Shown: piece after piece, positions 36,088-59,389 of the stretch
Layout: every line of letters starts with the position of its first letter
Position numbering within the stretch: the first letter of the stretch is position 1
IMG/VR virus record: IMGVR_UViG_2875713109_000001
DNA length: 64,000 bases
Origin: a virus
Lineage: Duplodnaviria > Heunggongvirae > Uroviricota > Caudoviricetes
Reading direction: 5' to 3' (one strand)
Position numbers and translations under genes: made by a program
Notes under the pieces: model-generated
Told to the model about the DNA's origin: nothing
Databases searched by the model: none
The model's input: the letters and a program-made list of their open reading frames with translations, nothing else

Positions 36088-36116
36088 TTGACCTTTTAAT
36101 CGTTCAGGCTTATAGT
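36088..36116 (+). promoter_or_regulatory. sigma70 promoter TTGACC-17 bp-TATAGT for the c4-icd-ant operon
   Basis: Near-consensus -35 and -10 with 17-bp spacer. Confidence 0.5.
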
Positions 36117-36229
36117 TTCGCCGTCGTAGCAAATTCTGCGACCAGGTTTGACAGCCTGAATGATTGTGCGGACAACCGCAGATTTCCGATATTGCGGTAT
36201 TTTTGTGTCCGTTAAACCGCGTTACGCCC

Positions 36230-36340
36230 AAATTATGGTGGGGCGTGATGGGGAGGCTTCGGCCTGCTGGTTTCACAATCGCCAGTCTGTCAACCCTGTC
36301 ACGTCCTGCCACCTGTTTGACAGCGGGTAGCAGGTTGTTA
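36230..36340 (+). ncRNA. c4: c4-like antisense repressor RNA region (approximate)
   Basis: Leader between promoter and icd holds hairpin-prone GC segments and TTTGACAGC boxes (~36148, ~36315) with a partial complement CTGTCAAC (~36288). Confidence 0.35.
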
Positions 36341-54135: not shown

Positions 54136-56396
54136 AAGAGCTGTGCTATGGATCTGTTTGCAGTGGAATTGAAGCCGCGAGTATTGCCTGGGAACCGTTG
54201 GGTATGCGTCCGGCGTGGTTTGCTGAAATCGAGCCTTTTCCATCTGCCGTTCTTGCGCACCGCTGGCCCCATGTCGCCAACCTTGGCGACATGACAAAAC
54301 TTGCCAAAAAAGTCCTGGCTGGGGAAATCGAATCCCCTGATGTGCTCGTCGGGGGAACACCTTGTCAGGCATTCAGTATCGCTGGATTACGTGGTGGGCT
54401 TGATGATGAGCGTGGCGCGCTAACTTTAAAGTATGTGGAGCTTGCAAATGCAATTGACGACAAACGGGCTGAGTCATTTCTCAAACCAGCCGTTATCGTC
54501 TGGGAAAATGTCCCAGGAGTCTTGTCATCGGCAGATAACGCCTTCGGATGTTTCCTTGCCGGATTGGCTGGAGAAGATGCGCCATTTGAACCAGGTGATC
54601 GACCTGAATCAGGAAAAAGTAACGCGTTCTGGCGGTGGGATGGCAAAACCGGTTGCCATGCTCCAAAGTGGCCGCAGTGTGGTTGTATTTATGGACCGCA
54701 GCGAAAGGTGGCCTGGAGAATCCTTGATGCCCAATACTTCGGAGTGGCACAACGACGCCGACGCGTGTTTGTTGTCGCAAGTGCTCGAACAGACCTCGAT
54801 CCCGCAACGGTACTTTTTGAGTTCGAAGGCGTGCGCCGGGATATTGCGCCGAGCCGAAAAAAGAAGGAAATCGCTTCCGCCATTATTGCAAATGGCGCTG
54901 CAATCAGTGGCGAAAGCCTAAATCCATGCCTACATGCTGACATGCCACCCGGTATGAAATCGACGAAAGCCGTAAACGCTTTCAGGATGGCAGCATTTGG
55001 GGAATATATTGACGATGAAACCGCATCGACAGTAAAGGCAAGAGATTTTAAAGATGCCACTGACCTTGCCGTTTTTAGCAGCACAGGAGCAGCTTTTTGG
55101 TCAGAAGGGCATGGTACATTGCGGGCACGTGAGCAAGAAAGCCATGAGCATCTTGTTACATTGGCTTTTCCTGAGCGTATGAGCGGTACACAACATGCTG
55201 CAACTAAGAATACTTCACCATCTCTAATGGCTAAAAATCCAACAGCTGTTTGCTATGAAGTAAGAAACGCAGAAGTAGCTGTCCGCCGTCTTACCCCTGT
55301 CGAATGTGAAAGGCTGCAAGGTTTTCCTGATGGGCATACGTTGATCCCGACGGAAAAGCGTAAAAAAGTTAGTTCAGATGAACTGGCATATCTTCGCAAT
55401 CACTATCCAGATTTAAGCGAAGAAGAGGCCGTGATGCTTGCAGCTGACGGACCGCGTTACAAAGCGATCGGCAATAGTATGGCAATACCAGTAATGCGCT
55501 GGATTGGCGATCGGATTACTAAGGCCGTATGTCGGCAGAAAGAAGGAAGTGAAACAAAAGAGCGAAAAGTTAAACCAGCGGCAGAATTCGAACGGTCCAT
55601 ATTCAAATGGGCTGGTGGAAAATTTGGTGTTCTGGAACAAATCTTTCGCTATTTGCCAGAAGGGAAGCGCCTGATTGAACCTTTCGTTGGTGGCGGAGCT
55701 GTCTTCATGAATGCCGGATACCAGGAAAATCTGCTAAATGATGTGAATGCTGACCTGATTAACTTTTACAAGACTCTGCAACGCGAGGCGCATTCACTTA
55801 TCACTCTGGCACATCGTTTTTTCCTGGACTACAACACCCAGGAGGGATACTTGGCAGTACGGAATGCGTTTAACAAACAAGTCTATGATGATTTACATCG
55901 CGCAGCGGCGTTTTTGTTCCTGAACCGACATTGTTTTAACGGATTGACGCGTTACAACCAGGCCGGTGAGTTCAATGTCGGTTATGGGAAGTATAAAACT
56001 CCGTATTTCCCATTACAGGAGATGGAAGCCTTCCTCGGTGCGGAAGGGCGGTCTGAGTTTGTATGCGGTGATTTTGCAGCGGTGATTGAAGCTGCCGGAG
56101 AAGGAGATGTCATCTTTTGCGATCCGCCGTATGAACCGCTCCCCAATACAGAGGGGTTCACGAACTATTCCGGTCATGACTTTAAGTTTGAAGAGCAAAA
56201 ACGCCTGGTGTCTCTGTTGACGGATGCTCATCGTCGAGGTGCAAAGGTTCTCATTACTAACAGTGGCGCGCCAAACATCAGAGAGCTTTATCATGACAGT
56301 GGCTTCAGAGTGGAACCTCTTTTTGCCAGACGTTCTGTGTCTTGTAAGGGGGACACTCGAGGTGTAGCTCATGACGTTTTGGGTATATTGCTCTAA
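54132..56396 (+). CDS. dmt: bifunctional DNA methyltransferase: N-terminal C5-cytosine (Dcm-like) + C-terminal N6-adenine (Dam-like)
   Basis: 754 aa; [11 protein letters not shown] and VIVWENVPG (C5 MTase); [13 protein letters not shown]...[12 protein letters not shown] and FCDPPYEP (Dam-like); GTG start with SD GGAGG. Confidence 0.9.
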
Positions 56397-56403
56397 TAAA
56401 TTA
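56387..56403 (+). promoter_or_regulatory. C1 operator-like site ATTGCTCTAATAAATTA overlapping the dmt stop codon
   Basis: 16/17 match; encodes the last codons of dmt. Confidence 0.5.
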
Positions 56404-56577
56404 ATTAGTGTAATATCGCCTCAATGAATCGTGATTTATAGAGCGATTTAGCTGTTAGCCGCGACAGGCGCGGCGGTAAGCATGGCTGGGCCTAGTCCTC
56501 CCAGACAAACCACCGAGTTGCCAGGTTGACCATGCGCCTAAGTGGCAACGCCGAAGTGCGTTACGAGCTTCCAGTTT

Positions 56578-56603
56578 GCCCATCTTCGGGTGGGCGTTTT
56601 TTT
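56578..56603 (+). terminator. intrinsic terminator GCCCA-tcttcggg-TGGGC-GTTTTTTT
   Basis: GC stem followed by T7 run. Confidence 0.6.
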
Positions 56604-57069
56604 CAGGGTTTTCGTCATGGTTAGCGACTTTGCGGCGGTTTAGAAACTGACCATTAAAGTAAATGCAAACGATGATCTGATGATGGTAGCGGCCTAAGAA
56701 ACCAGATGCCACGGGGTATGAGTCGTCCCCCGTCAAAAAAATCGACCGCAGAGTGTCCCCGTCTGTGTATTAGGGAACGGGGAGGCACAACAGGTAAGGG
56801 CGCTGGTGTGATTAACCAGATGAACGAGAAGGGGCCATCTGTTGGTCAGCGTCCTTTCCTGTTGCGTTTTCTTTTCAGCGTAACAGCGGTGCTTAACAGC
56901 ACTTTGGGTACAGTTCCACGAATTTACGGGTATATCCCGTCATGCTGAAGGCGCTAATCACGCTGGAAGCCAGGGTTGTGCATCCCCTGTTACCGAATTG
57001 CAGCCAGGGCGCGGTGCGCCGAAAAGCATACGGAGGTGGAAGCCCTCGCCGGAGACGTACCCGGCAAGT

Positions 57070-57145
57070 GATGGTGTAGCTCAGCGGTTAGAGCGGTTGA
57101 CTGTTAATCAACGGGTCGATGGTTCAAATCCATCCACCATCGCCA
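57070..57145 (+). tRNA. tRNA-Asn (anticodon GTT)
   Basis: Full cloverleaf read by hand: acceptor GATGGTG/CACCATC, anticodon loop CTGTTAA, T-arm GATGG-TTCAAAT-CCATC, encoded CCA. Confidence 0.9.
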
Positions 57146-57147
57146 AT

Positions 57148-57223
57148 GCCGGTTTAGCTCAGTTGGTAGAGCGCCTGCCTTGTAAGCAGGATGTCAGCGG
57201 TTCGAGTCCGTTAATCGGCACCA
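57148..57223 (+). tRNA. tRNA-Thr (anticodon TGT)
   Basis: Acceptor GCCGGTT/AATCGGC, D-arm GCTCAGTTGGTAGAGC, anticodon loop CTTGTAA, T-loop TTCGAGT, encoded CCA. Confidence 0.9.
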
Positions 57224-57227
57224 GCAC

Positions 57228-57318
57228 AACAGGTAAGGGTATTTTGCGACGCCGGAGATCGCCGAGCTTGGCAGAGGGTTCGAATCCCTACGAAGTACCC
57301 TTACCGTTGTGATGAAGT
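57228..57318 (+). ncRNA. tRNA-like hairpin element A
   Basis: 17-bp inverted repeat CACAACAGGTAAGGGTA / TACCCTTACCGTTGTG enclosing AGGGTTCGAATCCCT (canonical T-arm). Confidence 0.35.
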
Positions 57319-57444
57319 GCAGCTCTTTGAAGCAACCAGAAGATAAGCATCTGGCTTCACAACATAAACCGCAGGAACGACCAATAAACGGTAGTCCGTA
57401 TGGAGAACACCCCGTTGAGGAAGAGGCCTGGCCGGAACCGTAAC

Positions 57445-57557
57445 CGGCACTACAACGTTGAGAACACTGGCGTAACGGGGTCATATCCCAATCTACGAAT
57501 AAATGTTGCGTTGCAGCGTGACAACCAGTGTTCTCAACATTGTGGTGAATGCACAGG
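57445..57557 (+). ncRNA. tRNA-like hairpin element B
   Basis: 18-bp inverted repeat CAACGTTGAGAACACTGG / CCAGTGTTCTCAACATTG enclosing ACGGGGTCATATCCCAATCTAC. Confidence 0.35.
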
Positions 57558-57722
57558 CTGATGTGCCGCAACTACAGTAGTGCGCGCTTTGCGGGGCTTG
57601 CTACAACCCTGTGTCGGAGTTCAGCACCGACCATCACAGTTTGATTCTCTGGCATGAGCATAACGCTGAAATAAGTCCAGTCTGGTGCGGCCCGATCACC
57701 CGCCGTTAGCTCCACGAAACGG

Positions 57723-57815
57723 AGCACGTAACAGGTAAGAGCATTCTCCTGTAACGGGTTCATATCCCAATCTACAGGTCCACCAAGAATGCTCTTTCCG
57801 TTGCGGTGAATGCGG
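57723..57815 (+). ncRNA. tRNA-like hairpin element C
   Basis: Inverted repeat AAGAGCATTCT / AGAATGCTCTT enclosing ACGGGTTCATATCCCAATCTAC; 5' ACAGGTAAG and 3' CCGTTGCGGTGAATGC shared with A/B. Confidence 0.35.
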
Positions 57816-57955
57816 CTAAGCGCACGCGGGGAAATGGTTATATCAGTCCATTCATTTCTCCTTGTTTCCCCGTCCACGGTGGATAACCAGCCAAAGGACA
57901 CCGGGAGGCACCCGGCACCGCAGCTTTTTTATTCGTTAAATAATGGAGTGAGAGG

Positions 57956-58192
57956 ATGCAGAACAATCCGAACAAATGTCGAACGCTATGGGTGCGGTTA
58001 TATATTTATGCCGTCCTCTGTTTGATTGTGTCACTGGTTCTGTATGTTTGGCTTTTGCCAAATATGATCTCATCTAACAGCACAATACTTGTATTGTTGG
58101 GAGTCCTTCTCGCGCTCATTTACCCGGCTTTCGCAGTAGTCTTTTTTCGTGAAAAAACCAGGAAATTAATTAATGAAAAAAACGTTGATTAG
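57956..58192 (+). CDS. small two-helix membrane protein coupled to SPFH lipoprotein
   Basis: 78 aa; ATG with SD GGAGTGAGAGG; overlaps downstream start. Confidence 0.45.
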   Translation: MQNNPNKCRTLWVRLYIYAVLCLIVSLVLYVWLLPNMISSNSTILVLLGVLLALIYPAFAVVFFREKTRKLINEKNVD

Positions 58193-59000
58193 TGCAGCGA
58201 TTATTTTGGGTTCTTTATGTCTGACCGGATGCGATCGGGTAGAGCCAGGTAACGTAGGGATCAAAGTAAATAAGCTGGGGGATGATAAAGGTATCGGTGA
58301 AGTAGTTGGCGTTGGTCGCTACTGGACAGGCTTGAATACTGAAGTTTATATCTTCCCGACCTTTAAGCAAATGAAGACATACGATGAGCCGTTCAGCTTC
58401 CAGATGAGCGACGGAACAACCATTGGTTACCACATCGGCGTAGCCTACAAGGTTGATCCAGCAAAAGTCACAACGGTATTTCAGACCTATCGCAAAGGTG
58501 TAGATGATATTACTGATACCGATCTACGCCAGAAGGTTGCAGATGCTCTGAACCGGTTAGCCAGCAAAATGACCACCGACAAATTTATCGACGGTGGCAA
58601 ATCTGAATTGCTTGATGCAGCCCTTAAAGACATTCAGGAAGAAATGACGCCAATCGGCATTCAGGTGATGAGCCTCTCTTATGTAGGTAAGCCAGAATAC
58701 CCGCCAACAGTTATTGACAGTATTAACGCCAAAGTCACGGCAAACCAAAAAACCCTGCAACGCGAGCAAGAGGTCAAACAACGTGAAGCAGAGGCCAACA
58801 TGCTGCGCGCGGAAGCTGCCGGACAGGCTGATGCTATTCGCACAAAAGCCCAGGCCGAAGCTGATGCCATTCGTTTACGTGGTGAAGCTCTGCGCCAGAA
58901 CCCCGGTGTTATGGAGTTGGAAGCGATCAACAAATGGAACGGTACATTACCGCAGTATATGACCAGTAATACCGCTGTTCCGTTTGTTCCGGTGAAATAA
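58173..59000 (+). CDS. SPFH/band-7 (prohibitin-like) lipoprotein
   Basis: Lipobox LCLTGC; SPFH-like core; C-terminal coiled coil QREQEVKQREAEANMLRAEAAGQADAIR. Confidence 0.7.
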   Translation: MKKTLISAAIILGSLCLTGCDRVEPGNVGIKVNKLGDDKGIGEVVGVGRYWTGLNTEVYIFPTFKQMKTYDEPFSFQMSDGTTIGYHIGVAYKVDPAKVTTVFQTYRKGVDDITDTDLRQKVADALNRLASKMTTDKFIDGGKSELLDAALKDIQEEMTPIGIQVMSLSYVGKPEYPPTVIDSINAKVTANQKTLQREQEVKQREAEANMLRAEAAGQADAIRTKAQAEADAIRLRGEALRQNPGVMELEAINKWNGTLPQYMTSNTAVPFVPVK

Positions 59001-59027
59001 AAGCGTAAGCAAAATTGGCAGTAATCC

Positions 59028-59103
59028 GGCCCTTTAGCTCAGTGGTTAGAGCTGGCGACTCATAATCGCACGGTCACCGGTTCAAGTCCGGTAGGGGCCA
59101 CCA
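59028..59103 (+). tRNA. tRNA-Ile2-like (anticodon CAT, lysidine-type)
   Basis: Near-identical in layout to remembered E. coli ileX: GGCCCTTTAGCTCAGTGGTTAGAGC...CTCATAA...GGTTCAAGTCC...AGGGGCCACCA. Confidence 0.85.
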
Positions 59104-59389
59104 TATTTGGTTGTAACACGGCGTCTGGCACATGCGTCGTTAGCGGTCTGGTGACGTTAAAAGGGGGGAACCTTGCCCCTAGCTCAGGCAACGAACCAGG
59201 TAGCCGGAATGTGCAAGCCACCGTTTGTTGTTTCTCGGGTAAAGGGATTCACCATCCTGGCGATTCGGTGTGACAGCCGGGAAGAGTCCGGCGCATTAAT
59301 CCTGATTTTCTGGTGATGACTCATATCGTTAGGAGTGATTTGAGTATGCCGATTATATCTGACATTCAGCACGCCTGGGTGGAGTGCTA

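What the first reader, a model, noticed from the sequence alone, without database searches (positions are those of the whole stretch)
56780..57820. Family of paralogous tRNA-like hairpin elements with stem covariation downstream of tRNA-Asn/Thr
Between dmt and the SPFH gene there is about 1.5 kb without convincing coding potential; track ORFs here merely translate the repeats. Three elements (57228-57318, 57445-57557, 57723-57815), and possibly a fourth near 56783-56990, each have a long inverted repeat of a different sequence around a conserved core. The core is a canonical T-arm in A (AGGGTTCGAATCCCT) and ACGGG(G/T)TCATATCCCAATCTAC in B and C. A and C share the 5' box ACAGGTAAG; all three share the 3' box TTG(T/C)G(G/A)TGAA(G)TGC. 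Different stems around a conserved loop is the signature of structured RNA. They could be processed small RNAs, degenerate tRNA genes or protein-binding DNA sites.
Basis: seen in the sequence. Interest (0 to 1): 0.6.

Follow-up and report, generated by a model that had tools for sequence, protein, structure and literature searches.

The report
Modular structured RNAs in phage leaders
The "tRNA-like" repeats in phage P1 are real RNA hairpins that belong to a large, unannotated family of modular structured RNAs, also found in phage lambda and about a fifth of complete E. coli genomes, in which the stem is conserved and the tip is hypervariable; what they do is still unknown.

Summary
The window is phage P1. 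Bases 56397-57955 are the untranslated leader of the C1-repressed ban operon.

There are four long hairpins (Z, A, B, C), and the boxes occur far more often than chance.

The interpretation needs inverting. About 130 copies from other phages show a conserved basal stem (AAC-A-GGUAAGAGCAUUG...CAGUGCUCUUUCC-GUU) clamping a hypervariable tip of 27-69 nt (47 unrelated tip families).

That helix encloses a module built like the prophage sRNAs STnc100 and PasD.

Both modules show compensatory covariation (0/500 shuffles). G.U outnumbers A.C 62:9, so they are RNA on the + strand.

The unit usually lies between gene Q and the holin gene, and phage lambda has one right after tR'. In P1-like phages it alternates with tRNA genes. 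It occurs in 1,039 of 5,426 complete E. coli genomes. Neither Rfam nor RefSeq annotates it.

The reference ORFs plp and upl are not conserved reading frames.

Most likely these are co-transcribed RNA modules cut out by tRNA-processing nucleases. That mechanism is inferred, not shown.

The parts
56371..56416 (+). Pban promoters and the C1 operator (start of the ban operon); context only
   Evidence: Coordinates transferred from the NC_005856 annotation. The offset between record and window is about 12280.
56779..56987 (+).
   Evidence: Inverted repeat I4. It forms in the minimum-energy fold of 56775-56995, z = -4.0. P1 relatives show only single-sided changes in it, so the comparison is neutral.
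56788..56864 (+). Hairpin Z: a family-type module-1 hairpin (CAACAGGUAAGGGCGCUG...CAGCGUCCUUUCCUGUUG), not followed by a module 2
   Evidence: (-42 kcal/mol, z = -4.4).
57070..57145 (+). tRNA-Asn (GUU)
   Evidence: ARAGORN. Rfam tRNA, 74.5 bits.
57148..57223 (+). tRNA-Thr (UGU). Its CCA end is followed by GCAC and then hairpin A
57228..57308 (+). Hairpin A (module 1): AAC-A-GGUAAGGGUAUUU ... AAGUACCCUUACC-GUU. Its tip carries a canonical T-arm sequence at 57275-57289
   Evidence: Fold -41.7 kcal/mol, z = -5.0. The same tip family, with the T-arm unchanged, occurs in Enterobacter phage BUCT554 and in locus L036.
57307..57362 (+). Module 2-A, short form: closing helix UUGUGA/UCACAA around the hairpin CCAGA-AGAUAAGCA-UCUGG
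   Evidence: The closing helix appears in the minimum-energy fold, but z is only -1.0. This block is 80-95% identical in Sashavirus, P22-like phages and Klebsiella phage-plasmids.
57363..57447 (+). Module 3: a conserved spacer ending in the mini-hairpin GCCGG-AACCGUAA-CCGGC (57431-57448), followed by AC
   Evidence: Shared with Citrobacter phage phiNP and locus L026. Not significantly structured overall, z = -0.6.
57448..57547 (+). Hairpin B (module 1 with a different stem sequence, AACGUUGAGAACACUGG...CCAGUGUUCUCAACAUU). The tip holds the shared B/C core at 57472-57496
   Evidence: 23-nt arms, 91% complementary. Fold -49.6 kcal/mol, z = -5.5.
57540..57639 (+). Module 2-B: closing helix UUGUGGUG/CAUCACAG, hairpin hp-a GCACAGGCUGAUGUGC (57551-57566), a variable stretch, and hairpin hp-b UCGGAGUUCAGCACCGA (57614-57630)
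   Evidence: The minimum-energy fold gives all three helices, though z is only -0.8. Covariation across the family supports the helices.
57640..57729 (+). Module 4: a roughly 90-nt spacer ending in the mini-hairpin GCUCC-ACGAAAC-GGAGC (57709-57725), followed by ACGU. A genuine tRNA-Ser(UGA) fills this slot in D6, P7, CMS-2020a and L088
   Evidence: Homologous blocks occur in Klebsiella and Cronobacter lambdoid phages.
57730..57802 (+). Hairpin C (module 1, consensus stem AAC-A-GGUAAGAGCAUUC...GAAUGCUCUUUCC-GUU). The tip holds the shared B/C core at 57751-57775
   Evidence: z = -4.3. A homologue lies after Q and four tRNAs in Klebsiella phage ST16-OXA48phi5.2.
57801..57924 (+). Module 2-C: an STnc100-like RNA. 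Closing helix UUGCGGUG/CACCGCAG and hairpin hp-b CCGGGAGGCACCCGG (57901-57915), followed by a T-run at 57925-57930
   Evidence: Rfam STnc100 RF02076 scores 37.8 bits, E = 3e-6, below the gathering score of 47. Fold -53.1 kcal/mol, z = -4.1, with the closing helix formed.

Best explanation
The elements are RNA, made as part of the long untranslated leader of the P1 ban operon. That leader runs Pban, sRNA-like region, hairpin Z, tRNA-Asn, tRNA-Thr, hairpin A, module 2, spacer, hairpin B, module 2, spacer, hairpin C, module 2, then the genes, tRNA-Ile and ban.

- Module 1 is a long hairpin. Its basal 16 bp, with a bulged A and a usually mismatched U.U, are conserved, and its tip is free to be almost anything.
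It is a multi-branched RNA closed by a 7-9 bp helix. Just inside that helix sit a 5' hairpin and, abutting the 3' strand with no gap, a second 5-bp hairpin. This acceptor-stem-plus-T-arm-like geometry is the same build as the Hfq-associated prophage sRNAs STnc100 and PasD.

Shown here:
- The structures are real.
- They are selected as RNA on the + strand.
- The family is large and modular.
- It lives in operon leaders, usually Q to holin.
- In P1-like phages it alternates with tRNA genes.

Inferred:
- The precursor is cut by the tRNA-maturation machinery. RNase P would cut at the 5' side of the module-2 closing helix, as established for the C4 RNA of P1/P7. RNase E or RNase III would cut around the hairpins.
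- This would release tRNAs, module-2 sRNAs that act by base pairing through their variable segment, and the hairpins.
- The hairpin would stand where free-standing STnc100 and PasD have a promoter. It would give the module a defined 5' end and keep neighbouring modules folding independently.
For: Identity and operon:
- The window is P1, and the region is annotated as the C1-controlled ban operon. In P7 the operator is annotated as controlling the tRNAs.

RNA on the + strand:
- The + strand folds 3-9 kcal/mol better for all four hairpins.
- G.U 62 against A.C 9 in 48 distinct arm pairs.
- About 83% of copies are co-oriented with flanking ORFs, and 29 of 29 nearby tRNAs are on the same strand.

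Covariation:
- Module 1: 7 of 16 pairs compensatory, 44 cells against 7.8 expected, 0/500 shuffles.
- Module 2: 9 of 18 pairs compensatory, 41 cells against 6.5 expected, 0/500 shuffles. This set was extracted without any pairing requirement.
- The closing helix switches U-A to C-G and G-C to A-U together.

Family size:
- Present in lambda, P22-like phages, Sashavirus, Uetakevirus, Phapecoctavirus and Klebsiella phage-plasmids.
- 1,039 of 5,426 complete E. coli genomes.
- Host range across Enterobacterales.

Context:
- The upstream gene is Q, from four unrelated PHROG families, in 62 of 82 cases. The downstream genes are holin and endolysin.
- The unit often comes directly after a tR'-like terminator.

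Link to tRNA processing:
- Arrays read tRNA, hairpin, module 2, tRNA in D6, P7, CMS-2020a, pJN2-26 and L088.

Link to sRNAs:
- Module 2-C scores 37.8 bits against Rfam STnc100.
- The PasD locus in NC_049952 scores 38.3 bits.
- STnc100 and PasD are Hfq-associated sRNAs (PMC8550237; bioRxiv 10.64898/2026.05.13.724894).
- Canonical STnc100 has a promoter where the hairpin sits in this family.

Transcription:
- Reads assigned to 'upl' and tciB are reported during P1vir infection (PMC8201110).
Against: - There is no direct evidence here for processing, for stable products, or for Hfq binding of the P1 modules.
- Modules 2-A and 2-B are not thermodynamically exceptional, z about -1.
- Modules 2-A and 2-B lack the U-tailed terminator typical of Hfq sRNAs.
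- SJ46 shows that B, module 2-B, module 4 and C can be destroyed in a viable phage-plasmid.
- The variable segments of P1 have no obvious antisense target within the 64-kb window.
- Tip sequences match only other copies of the scaffold in phage genomes.
- The copies came from exact-match anchors in related prophages. Invariance of the anchored columns is uninformative, and the shuffle control ignores phylogeny.
- Module 2-C is below Rfam's gathering score for STnc100.
Confidence: 0.5

Rival explanations
1. The elements act only in cis. They matter only while part of the transcript. They would pack a long untranslated leader into structure so that Rho and RNases cannot attack it, insulate neighbouring tRNAs and sRNAs so each folds on its own, or stabilise the 5' end of the downstream mRNA. 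The released pieces would have no function of their own, and the tips would vary because nothing constrains them.
For: - They always sit in untranslated operon leaders, with a median non-coding gap of 656 nt.
- They often come right after tR'.
- Tips are mostly not structured on their own, median z = -0.6.
- Tips show no detectable targets.
- The SJ46 deletion is tolerated.
- Tip and V2 are independent of each other.
Against: - The primary sequence of the arms, tail and module-2 hairpins is conserved far beyond what structure alone needs.
- Individual tip families are conserved across unrelated phages. One example is the T-arm tip shared by P1, BUCT554 and L036.
- Relatives of module 2 (STnc100, PasD) are trans-acting, Hfq-bound sRNAs (PMC8550237).
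- The boxA-like UGCUCUUU changes whenever the stem covaries.
- The nut-site idea failed.
Confidence: 0.25
2. The hairpins are decayed tRNA genes, meaning pseudo-tRNAs left over from a larger tRNA cluster.
For: - They lie in a tRNA array.
- A has a perfect T-arm sequence, and B and C have T-arm-like GGGKUCAUAUCCC.
- T-loop-like tips are enriched, 6 of 77 against 0.7 expected.
- Relatives have real tRNAs (Tyr, Ser) in neighbouring slots.
Against: - ARAGORN makes no call on them.
- The Rfam tRNA model gives no hit on them even at E<=10.
- 71 of 77 tips are not T-arm-like.
- Most copies (102 of 115) have no tRNA within 1.5 kb.
- The conserved part is a 16-bp stem unlike any tRNA arm, and it is under purifying and compensatory selection rather than decaying.
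Confidence: 0.07
3. The elements act at the DNA level. They would be recombination sites or small mobile cassettes, similar to integron attC sites or MITEs. Conserved inverted ends (AAC...GTT) would flank a variable centre and drive module shuffling between phages.
For: - Tips, flanks and module-2 interiors are reshuffled among phages.
- A 66-nt segment lies inside lambda's module-2 helix but inside a hairpin-1-type stem in D6 and P7.
- The SJ46 deletion arose between repeated cores.
- The ends resemble the attC R''/R' boxes.
Against: - The G.U to A.C asymmetry of 62:9 is expected for RNA, not for duplex or cruciform DNA.
- The orientation is fixed relative to transcription.
- GTTGTGG and GTTGCGG do not fit GTTRRRY.
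- No common recombinase can be named across P1, lambda, P22-like, epsilon15-like and 9NA-like phages.
- No target-site duplications or empty sites were seen.
- Shuffling is equally explained by ordinary homologous recombination between conserved 17-40 nt arms.
Confidence: 0.1
4. The region encodes the proteins Plp and Upl on the minus strand, as annotated in the P1 reference genome, and the repeats are incidental.
For: ORFs of 125 and 109 codons exist on the minus strand. They are annotated as plp and upl in NC_005856.
Against: - The homologous DNA is split over two or three frames in Ro157c2YLVW and P7.
- upl is nearly absent from D6 and P7.
- There is no Pfam hit.
- plp starts with TTG and runs antisense into tRNA-Thr.
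- plp matches its own opposite strand because it translates a palindrome.
- P7 and other records do not annotate these ORFs.
Confidence: 0.02

Closest known systems
STnc100 (Rfam RF02076) and PasD prophage sRNAs
   Same: - Module 2 has the same build: a closing helix (C)AUGGUG/CACCAU(G) compared with UUGYGRUG/CAYCRCAA, unpaired AAU, a 5' hairpin, a variable middle, and a CCGG-type 3' hairpin abutting the closing strand.
- Both live in the Q-to-holin late region of lambdoid prophages.
- P1 module 2-C scores 37.8 bits against STnc100, and the PasD locus scores 38.3 bits.
   Different: - STnc100 and PasD have their own promoter and no module-1 hairpin.
- The P1/lambda type is embedded in a longer transcript behind a conserved hairpin.
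- It has different hairpin sequences (GCGCAGGCUGAUGCGC and GCCGG-AGAUCAGCA-CCGGC).
- None of 20 loci reaches the gathering score of any Rfam family over these units.
- Hfq binding was not tested.
C4 antisense RNA of P1/P7 (RF01695)
   Same: It is a small structured phage RNA cut out of an operon leader by RNase P, with variable loops that set its specificity (my own knowledge: Hartmann et al. 1995). A genuine C4 is present in this window at 36231-36316.
   Different: There is no sequence or model similarity to the elements, since Rfam gives no C4 hit at 56350-58000. RNase P processing of the elements is inferred only.
Stable 'species 1/2' RNAs in the phage T4 tRNA cluster, and tRNA-spacer sRNAs such as 3'ETS-leuZ
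   Same: They are non-tRNA small RNAs co-transcribed with tRNAs and released by tRNA-processing nucleases (my own knowledge).
   Different: They are different sequences from different phages or hosts, with no homology tested or expected. This is an analogy of mechanism only.
Bacterial Y RNA-like YrlA (RF02553)
   Same: A long basal stem carries a variable, sometimes tRNA-like (T-arm) apical domain. Hairpin A looks like this.
   Different: The only YrlA hit (25.6 bits against a gathering score of 69) spans the two real tRNAs, not the elements. The order of arms differs. No Ro/Rsr gene association was seen.
Integron attC sites
   Same: Both are imperfect hairpins with conserved AAC...GTT ends, an extrahelical base and a highly variable centre, arranged in arrays.
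   Different: - Strand asymmetry indicates RNA.
- The R' consensus is not met.
- There is no integron integrase context.
- The 'cassettes' are RNA modules and tRNAs, not ORFs.

Membership tests
tRNA / pseudo-tRNA | Recognised by a tRNA detector or by the tRNA covariance model (cloverleaf with acceptor, D, anticodon and T arms) | tested here: not met
   ARAGORN calls only the three real tRNAs. Rfam RF00005 gives no further hit in 56350-58000 even at E<=10.
tRNA / pseudo-tRNA | T-arm: a 5-bp stem with a GTTCRANYC loop | tested here: inconclusive
   The sequence is canonical in A (AGGGTTCGAATCCCT). It is degenerate in B and C (GGGKTCATATCCC) and absent from Z. Only 6 of 77 family tips have it.
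STnc100 (RF02076) | Score at or above Rfam's gathering threshold of 47 bits | tested here: not met
   Module 2-C scores 37.8 bits, E = 3e-6. Modules 2-A and 2-B give no hit.
STnc100 (RF02076) | Architecture: closing helix GGUG/CACC, AAU, 5' hairpin, variable middle, and a CCGG-type 3' hairpin adjacent to the closing strand | tested here: met
   Seen in modules 2-B and 2-C and in the family. The helices covary. Canonical STnc100 copies were compared.
STnc100 (RF02076) | Free-standing gene with its own promoter and a Rho-independent terminator | tested here: not met
   - No sigma-70-like promoter lies in 56300-59500.
- A hairpin occupies the promoter position.
- Only module 2-C is followed by a T-run.
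STnc100 / PasD | Hfq-dependent stability and base pairing with mRNA targets | not testable with these tools
   This is known for PasD and STnc100 from PMC8550237. There are no data for P1.
PasD | Sequence identity to the PasD1/PasD2 RNAs of EPEC E2348/69 | not tested
   - No PasD sequence is given in the papers held.
- By position, PasD in NC_049952 is the promoter-driven CAUGGUGAAUCC RNA at 43806-44010.
- That RNA lacks the hairpin.
Lambda-type nut site (boxA + boxB) | The same boxB hairpin at both nutL and nutR of a phage encoding the cognate N, together with a conserved boxA | tested here: not met
   - In SPN9CC the short module 2 lies between PL and N.
- The cro-cII region instead has a P22-type boxB.
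- It has no AGAUAAGCA hairpin.
- The boxA-like stretches are not conserved.
YrlA / Y RNA-like (RF02553) | Score at or above the gathering threshold of 69 bits over the element | tested here: not met
   The only hit, 25.6 bits, lies at 57090-57207 across the two real tRNAs.
Integron attC | R'' RYYYAAC and R' GTTRRRY core sites | tested here: not met
   AAC and GTT are present. However GCACAAC and CCATAAC, and GTTGTGG and GTTGCGG, break the consensus.
Integron attC | Functions as folded single-stranded DNA with an integron integrase and ORF cassettes | tested here: not met
   - The G.U to A.C ratio of 62:9 fits RNA.
- The neighbours are Q, holin and tRNAs.
- They are not intI or gene cassettes.
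HK022 put antiterminator RNA | A roughly 70-nt two-stem RNA just downstream of PL/PR that binds the RNA polymerase beta' zinc-binding domain | not tested
   The put sequence is not given in the paper read. The similarity of location is only partial.

The most novel reading that the evidence does not exclude
The conserved hairpin and the conserved module-2 frame are scaffolds that display two independently exchangeable, hypervariable segments: the tip (47 families in 77 sequences) and V2 (34 families in 50). These segments would act as programmable specificity determinants. They could be guide-like or decoy-like RNAs used in conflicts between co-resident prophages, or between phage and host (for example against RNA-targeting defences or rival phages' transcripts). 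That would explain why they are shuffled and diversified so fast while the frame stays almost invariant from lambda to P1.
Probability: 0.12. Interest if true: 0.85.

Novelty: new variant of a known kind. Interest (0 to 1): 0.62.

Why it matters
- If these are functional RNAs, two of the best-studied phages carry an overlooked, conserved non-coding RNA unit in key regulatory leaders. In lambda it sits right after tR', and in P1 it sits in the ban operon. The same unit occurs in roughly one in five complete E. coli genomes.
- It links the recently named virulence-associated sRNAs STnc100 and PasD to a much larger family. It also suggests how such sRNAs arise: as modules processed from late or early operon leaders that later gain their own promoters.
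- It corrects the P1 reference annotation, since plp and upl are probably not genes.
- It offers a compact, testable case of conserved frame plus hypervariable insert in phage RNA.

Tried and rejected
- **Nut-site reading of the short module 2.** It sits between PL and N in the P22-like phage SPN9CC. That phage's nutR position has a P22-type boxB and no AGAUAAGCA hairpin. Rejected.
- **boxA (UGCUCUUU) in the 3' arm as a Nus-factor site.** The sequence changes whenever the stem covaries. Rejected.
- **HK022 put RNA.** The paper was read but gives no sequence. Left untested.
- **IpeX, a K-12 DLP12 RNA in the pre-holin region (recalled from memory).** The DLP12 quuD-essD region has no copy of the scaffold. 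Rejected.
- **Covariance model built from arms with the tip trimmed (R1).** It handles long tips badly. It only showed that C, B and A are the three best hits in the window.
- **Antisense targets of the P1 tips and V2 within the window.** Only scattered 11-mers were found.
- **Targets of eight common tips in 50,697 phage genomes.** They matched only other scaffold copies.
- **Tip-to-V2 complementarity within a unit.** None was found, p = 0.55.
- **PasD sequence.** It is not printed in the papers or supplement held.
- **The P1 genome paper (PMC523184).** It is not held.
- **First extraction of module 2.** It required pairing and so was circular. It was replaced by an extraction anchored on the loop.
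- **Literature search for the element's sequence strings.** It returned no papers.
Full report
**What the window is.**
- The region is 99.8% identical to P1 isolates and 99.2% identical to the P1 reference.
- In the reference record it is the start of the C1-repressed ban operon. That operon runs from the Pban promoters and operator at the end of dmt, through a 'dicF-like region', trnA (Asn) and trnT (Thr), to tciABC, trnI and ban. Two ORFs, plp and upl, are annotated on the opposite strand.
- P7's record says the operator controls the tRNAs and ban.
- In this window the flanks are dmt (D12 plus C5 methylase domains), a 78-aa ORF, an SPFH/Band 7 protein, a tRNA(CAU) and a DnaB-type helicase.

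**Checking the observation.**
That covers the three long inverted repeats, the T-arm sequence in A, the 25-nt core shared by B and C (96% identical) and the two boxes.
- AACAGGTAAG occurs three times in 64 kb against 0.08 expected. TTGYGRTGAA occurs five times against 0.86 expected.
- All four hairpins fold far better than shuffles, with z from -4.3 to -5.5.
- The 'possible fourth' element is a family-type hairpin Z (56788-56864) inside a 13-bp outer pairing, 56779-56791 with 56975-56987. That pairing forms in the minimum-energy fold, z = -4.0.
- In every case the + strand folds better than the minus strand.

**Not coding.**
- The DNA homologous to plp is split across two or three frames in Ro157c2YLVW and P7.
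- upl is almost absent from D6 and P7.
- Neither ORF has a Pfam match.
- plp runs antisense into tRNA-Thr.

**The key turn: a family, with the logic inverted.**
- Pieces of the region recur separately in unrelated phages.
- Pairing the 5' and 3' boxes found the same unit in an epsilon15-like Enterobacter phage, Klebsiella and Cronobacter lambdoid phages, Sashavirus and a Klebsiella phage-plasmid.
- One scan of IMG/VR for AACAGGTAAG-N45-75-GTGGTGAATGC hit its 120-contig limit.
- Across 86 unique copies the basal stem AAC-A-GGTAAGAGCATTG ... CAGTGCTCTTTCC-GTT and the following GTGGTGAATGC-GCAGGCTGATGCGC are nearly invariant. The 27-69 nt tip is entirely different from copy to copy.
- The 77 distinct tips fall into 47 unrelated families. 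The same tip family occurs with several different flanks.
- The shared B/C core is a feature of the P1 lineage. In phage SJ46, recombination between its two copies deleted everything in between and left a hybrid whose arms cannot pair.

**RNA, and on the + strand.**
- Positions fixed by my search pattern say nothing. The unconstrained half of the stem shows compensatory changes at 7 of 16 pairs, with 44 cells against 7.8 in shuffles (0/500) and a collapse when partners are slid.
- G.U pairs outnumber A.C mismatches, which would be G.U on the other strand, by 62 to 9.
- Copies are co-oriented with neighbouring genes about 83% of the time. All 29 nearby tRNAs are on the same strand.

**What the '3' box' really is.**
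- Conservation continues downstream. UUGUGGUG-AAU is followed by a conserved hairpin (GCGCAGGCUGAUGCGC) and a variable stretch of 30-240 nt.
- After the variable stretch comes a second conserved hairpin (GCCGG-AGAUCAGCA-CCGGC). CACCACAA follows it directly and pairs back to the box.
- The closing helix changes in step: UUGCGGUG with CACCGCA, AUGCGAUG with CAUCGCAU, and CAUGGUG with CACCAUG.
- I tested this on a set anchored only on the unpaired loop motif at fixed offsets, with no pairing requirement. There, 91% of cells pair and 9 of 18 pairs are compensatory, including all five pairs of the second hairpin. That is 41 cells against 6.5 expected, 0/500 shuffles.
- In P1 these modules are 57307-57362 (short form), 57540-57639 and 57801-57924. 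Minimum-energy folds recover the helices, though only the last is thermodynamically exceptional.
- The last one is a sub-threshold match to Rfam STnc100: 37.8 bits against a gathering score of 47, E = 3e-6.
- The geometry is a 7-9 bp closing helix, a few unpaired bases, a hairpin, a variable region, and a 5-bp hairpin abutting the 3' strand with no gap. It resembles the acceptor/T-arm stack of a tRNA. That resemblance is my reading, not a tested property.

**Relation to named sRNAs.**
- STnc100 and PasD are Hfq-associated prophage sRNAs of the Q-to-holin region (PMC8550237; bioRxiv 10.64898/2026.05.13.724894).
- Canonical STnc100 copies have a promoter immediately upstream and no hairpin.
- The RNA at the published PasD position in NC_049952 is likewise promoter-driven. 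It scores 38.3 bits against STnc100.
- The hairpin-linked form is therefore a distinct, unnamed branch.
- No Rfam family reaches its gathering score on it in 20 loci.
- Nothing matches in the lambda late leader at E<=1.
- RefSeq annotates nothing over it in E. coli.
- No paper in the searchable library contains its sequence strings.

**Where it lives.**
- In 62 of 82 cases the upstream gene is a Q antiterminator, drawn from four unrelated Q families. Downstream genes are holins and endolysins.
- The unit often starts a few bases after a tR'-like terminator.
- Phage lambda has it. After tR' and tctgCAC comes the hairpin at lambda 44791-44859, then a module closed by GUUGUGCUG/CAGCACAAC, z = -4.3.
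- In P1-like phages and some phage-plasmids the units alternate with tRNA genes. D6, P7, CMS-2020a, pJN2-26 and L088 have a real tRNA-Ser(UGA) where P1 has its 90-nt 'module 4'.
- The conserved 3' block is present in 1,039 of 5,426 complete E. coli genomes.
- Exact 20-mers occur in Serratia, Klebsiella, Pantoea, Rahnella, Kosakonia and other Enterobacterales.

**How it most likely works.**
- Shown: co-transcribed, structured, selected RNA modules in untranslated operon leaders.
- Inferred: the precursor is processed by the tRNA-maturation machinery. RNase P would cut at the 5' edge of the module-2 closing helix, as is established for the C4 RNA of P1/P7 (my own knowledge). RNase E or RNase III would cut around the hairpins.
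- This would yield tRNAs, module-2 sRNAs acting through their variable segment like STnc100 and PasD, and free hairpins.
- The hairpin takes the place of a promoter in defining the module's 5' end, and it insulates neighbouring folds.
- The main rival is a purely cis role: protection of a long untranslated RNA from Rho and nucleases, or folding insulation. I cannot separate the two without expression data.
- Weak transcription evidence exists. Reads assigned to 'upl' and tciB are reported in P1vir infection, strand unstated (PMC8201110).

**Caveats.**
- Copies were retrieved with exact anchors from related prophages, so counts are lower bounds and the sample is not independent.
- The shuffle control is not phylogeny-aware.
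- Modules 2-A and 2-B, module 3 and module 4 are not thermodynamically distinctive.
- SJ46 shows that B and C are dispensable.
- No targets for the variable segments were found.

**Verdict.**
- The elements are members of a widespread, unannotated, modular phage RNA family related in part to STnc100 and PasD.
- Novelty: a new variant of a known kind.
- Interest is moderate to high, mainly because lambda and P1 both carry it, and because the combination of a conserved frame with a hypervariable insert is unexplained.

Noticed in passing
L273 992-1145 (phage lambda J02459 about 44791-44941): Lambda carries a complete unit immediately after tR'. It consists of a hairpin with the consensus stem plus a module closed by a perfect 9-bp helix GUUGUGCUG/CAGCACAAC. 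It overlaps the end of the unverified 'orf-64', and Rfam finds nothing there at E<=1.
   Followed up: partly
L274 (Salmonella phage SJ46), aligned to window 57480-57760: SJ46 has a 279-nt deletion whose endpoints lie in the 25-nt core shared by hairpins B and C. The result is a hybrid element whose arms cannot pair, so SJ46 is a natural knock-out of B, module 2-B, module 4 and C.
   Followed up: yes
L014 1896-1982 (P7); L013 2483-2569 (CMS-2020a); L003 2607-2693 (D6); L012 2071-2157 (pJN2-26): ARAGORN calls an 87-nt tRNA-Ser(UGA) in the slot where P1 has a non-tRNA spacer. The P7 record does not annotate it, and the D6 record flags it as doubtful. Ro157c2YLVW, CMS-2020a and L088 also have a tRNA-Tyr between Asn and Thr.
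   Followed up: partly
window 57194-57571 and 57572-57901, minus strand: The P1 reference genes plp ('putative lipoprotein') and upl are very probably annotation artefacts that translate the hairpins. Their frames are not conserved among P1 relatives, and they have no Pfam hit.
   Followed up: yes
L003 2697-2805 (D6) and L014 (P7), compared with L273 1066-1131 (lambda): A 66-nt segment (AATTAAGCGAATRCCGGAAGCAGAACCGGATCACCAAATGCGTACAGGCGTCATCGCCGCCCAGC) forms the interior of lambda's module 2. In D6 and P7 it is the tip of a hairpin-1-type stem. The same insert is therefore clamped by two different conserved helices.
   Followed up: no
window 56430-56612: Directly downstream of Pban lies the reference-annotated 'dicF-like region', ending in a strong intrinsic terminator (56577-56603). 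No Rfam family, DicF included, matched this stretch at E<=10. Transcription of the tRNAs and ban must read through it or start elsewhere.
   Followed up: no
window 57956-59000: This P1 variant carries a 78-aa ORF and an SPFH/Band 7 lipoprotein-like gene where the reference P1 has tciA-tciB-tciC. The swap begins right after the closing helix of module 2-C, and the T-run at 57925-57930 belongs to the variant arm.
   Followed up: partly
window 59028-59103: ARAGORN calls this CAU-anticodon tRNA as Met. The P1 and P7 records annotate it as tRNA-Ile2 (an ileX-like tRNA needing lysidine). The 280-nt non-coding stretch between it and ban was not examined.
   Followed up: no
L011 1499-1556 (Salmonella phage SPN9CC): A short module 2 (AUGCGAUG...CCAGA-AGAUAAGCA-UCUGG...CAUCGCAU) lies between a PL-like promoter and the start codon of gene N, 24 nt upstream of the ATG. 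It is not the boxB of that phage.
   Followed up: partly
H223-H236 (Phapecoctavirus, about 150-kb virulent myoviruses); L008 and L010 (Sashavirus and Nonanavirus): Copies of the scaffold also occur in virulent or 9NA-like phages, between structural genes. The family is therefore not confined to Q-to-holin leaders of temperate phages.
   Followed up: no
L261, L262, L264, L265, L268: Exact 20-mer matches to the 3' arm and tail occur in assemblies labelled Martelella, Geobacteraceae, Acidobacteriota and Mariniblastus. About one match is expected by chance in 596 Gb, and the rest may be enterobacterial contamination of metagenome-assembled genomes.
   Followed up: no
window 36110-36316: A genuine C4 antisense RNA (68.4 bits) and its a1/b1 target motif (55.2 bits) are present, as expected for the P1 immI region. 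This confirms that the window spans the immunity region.
   Followed up: no
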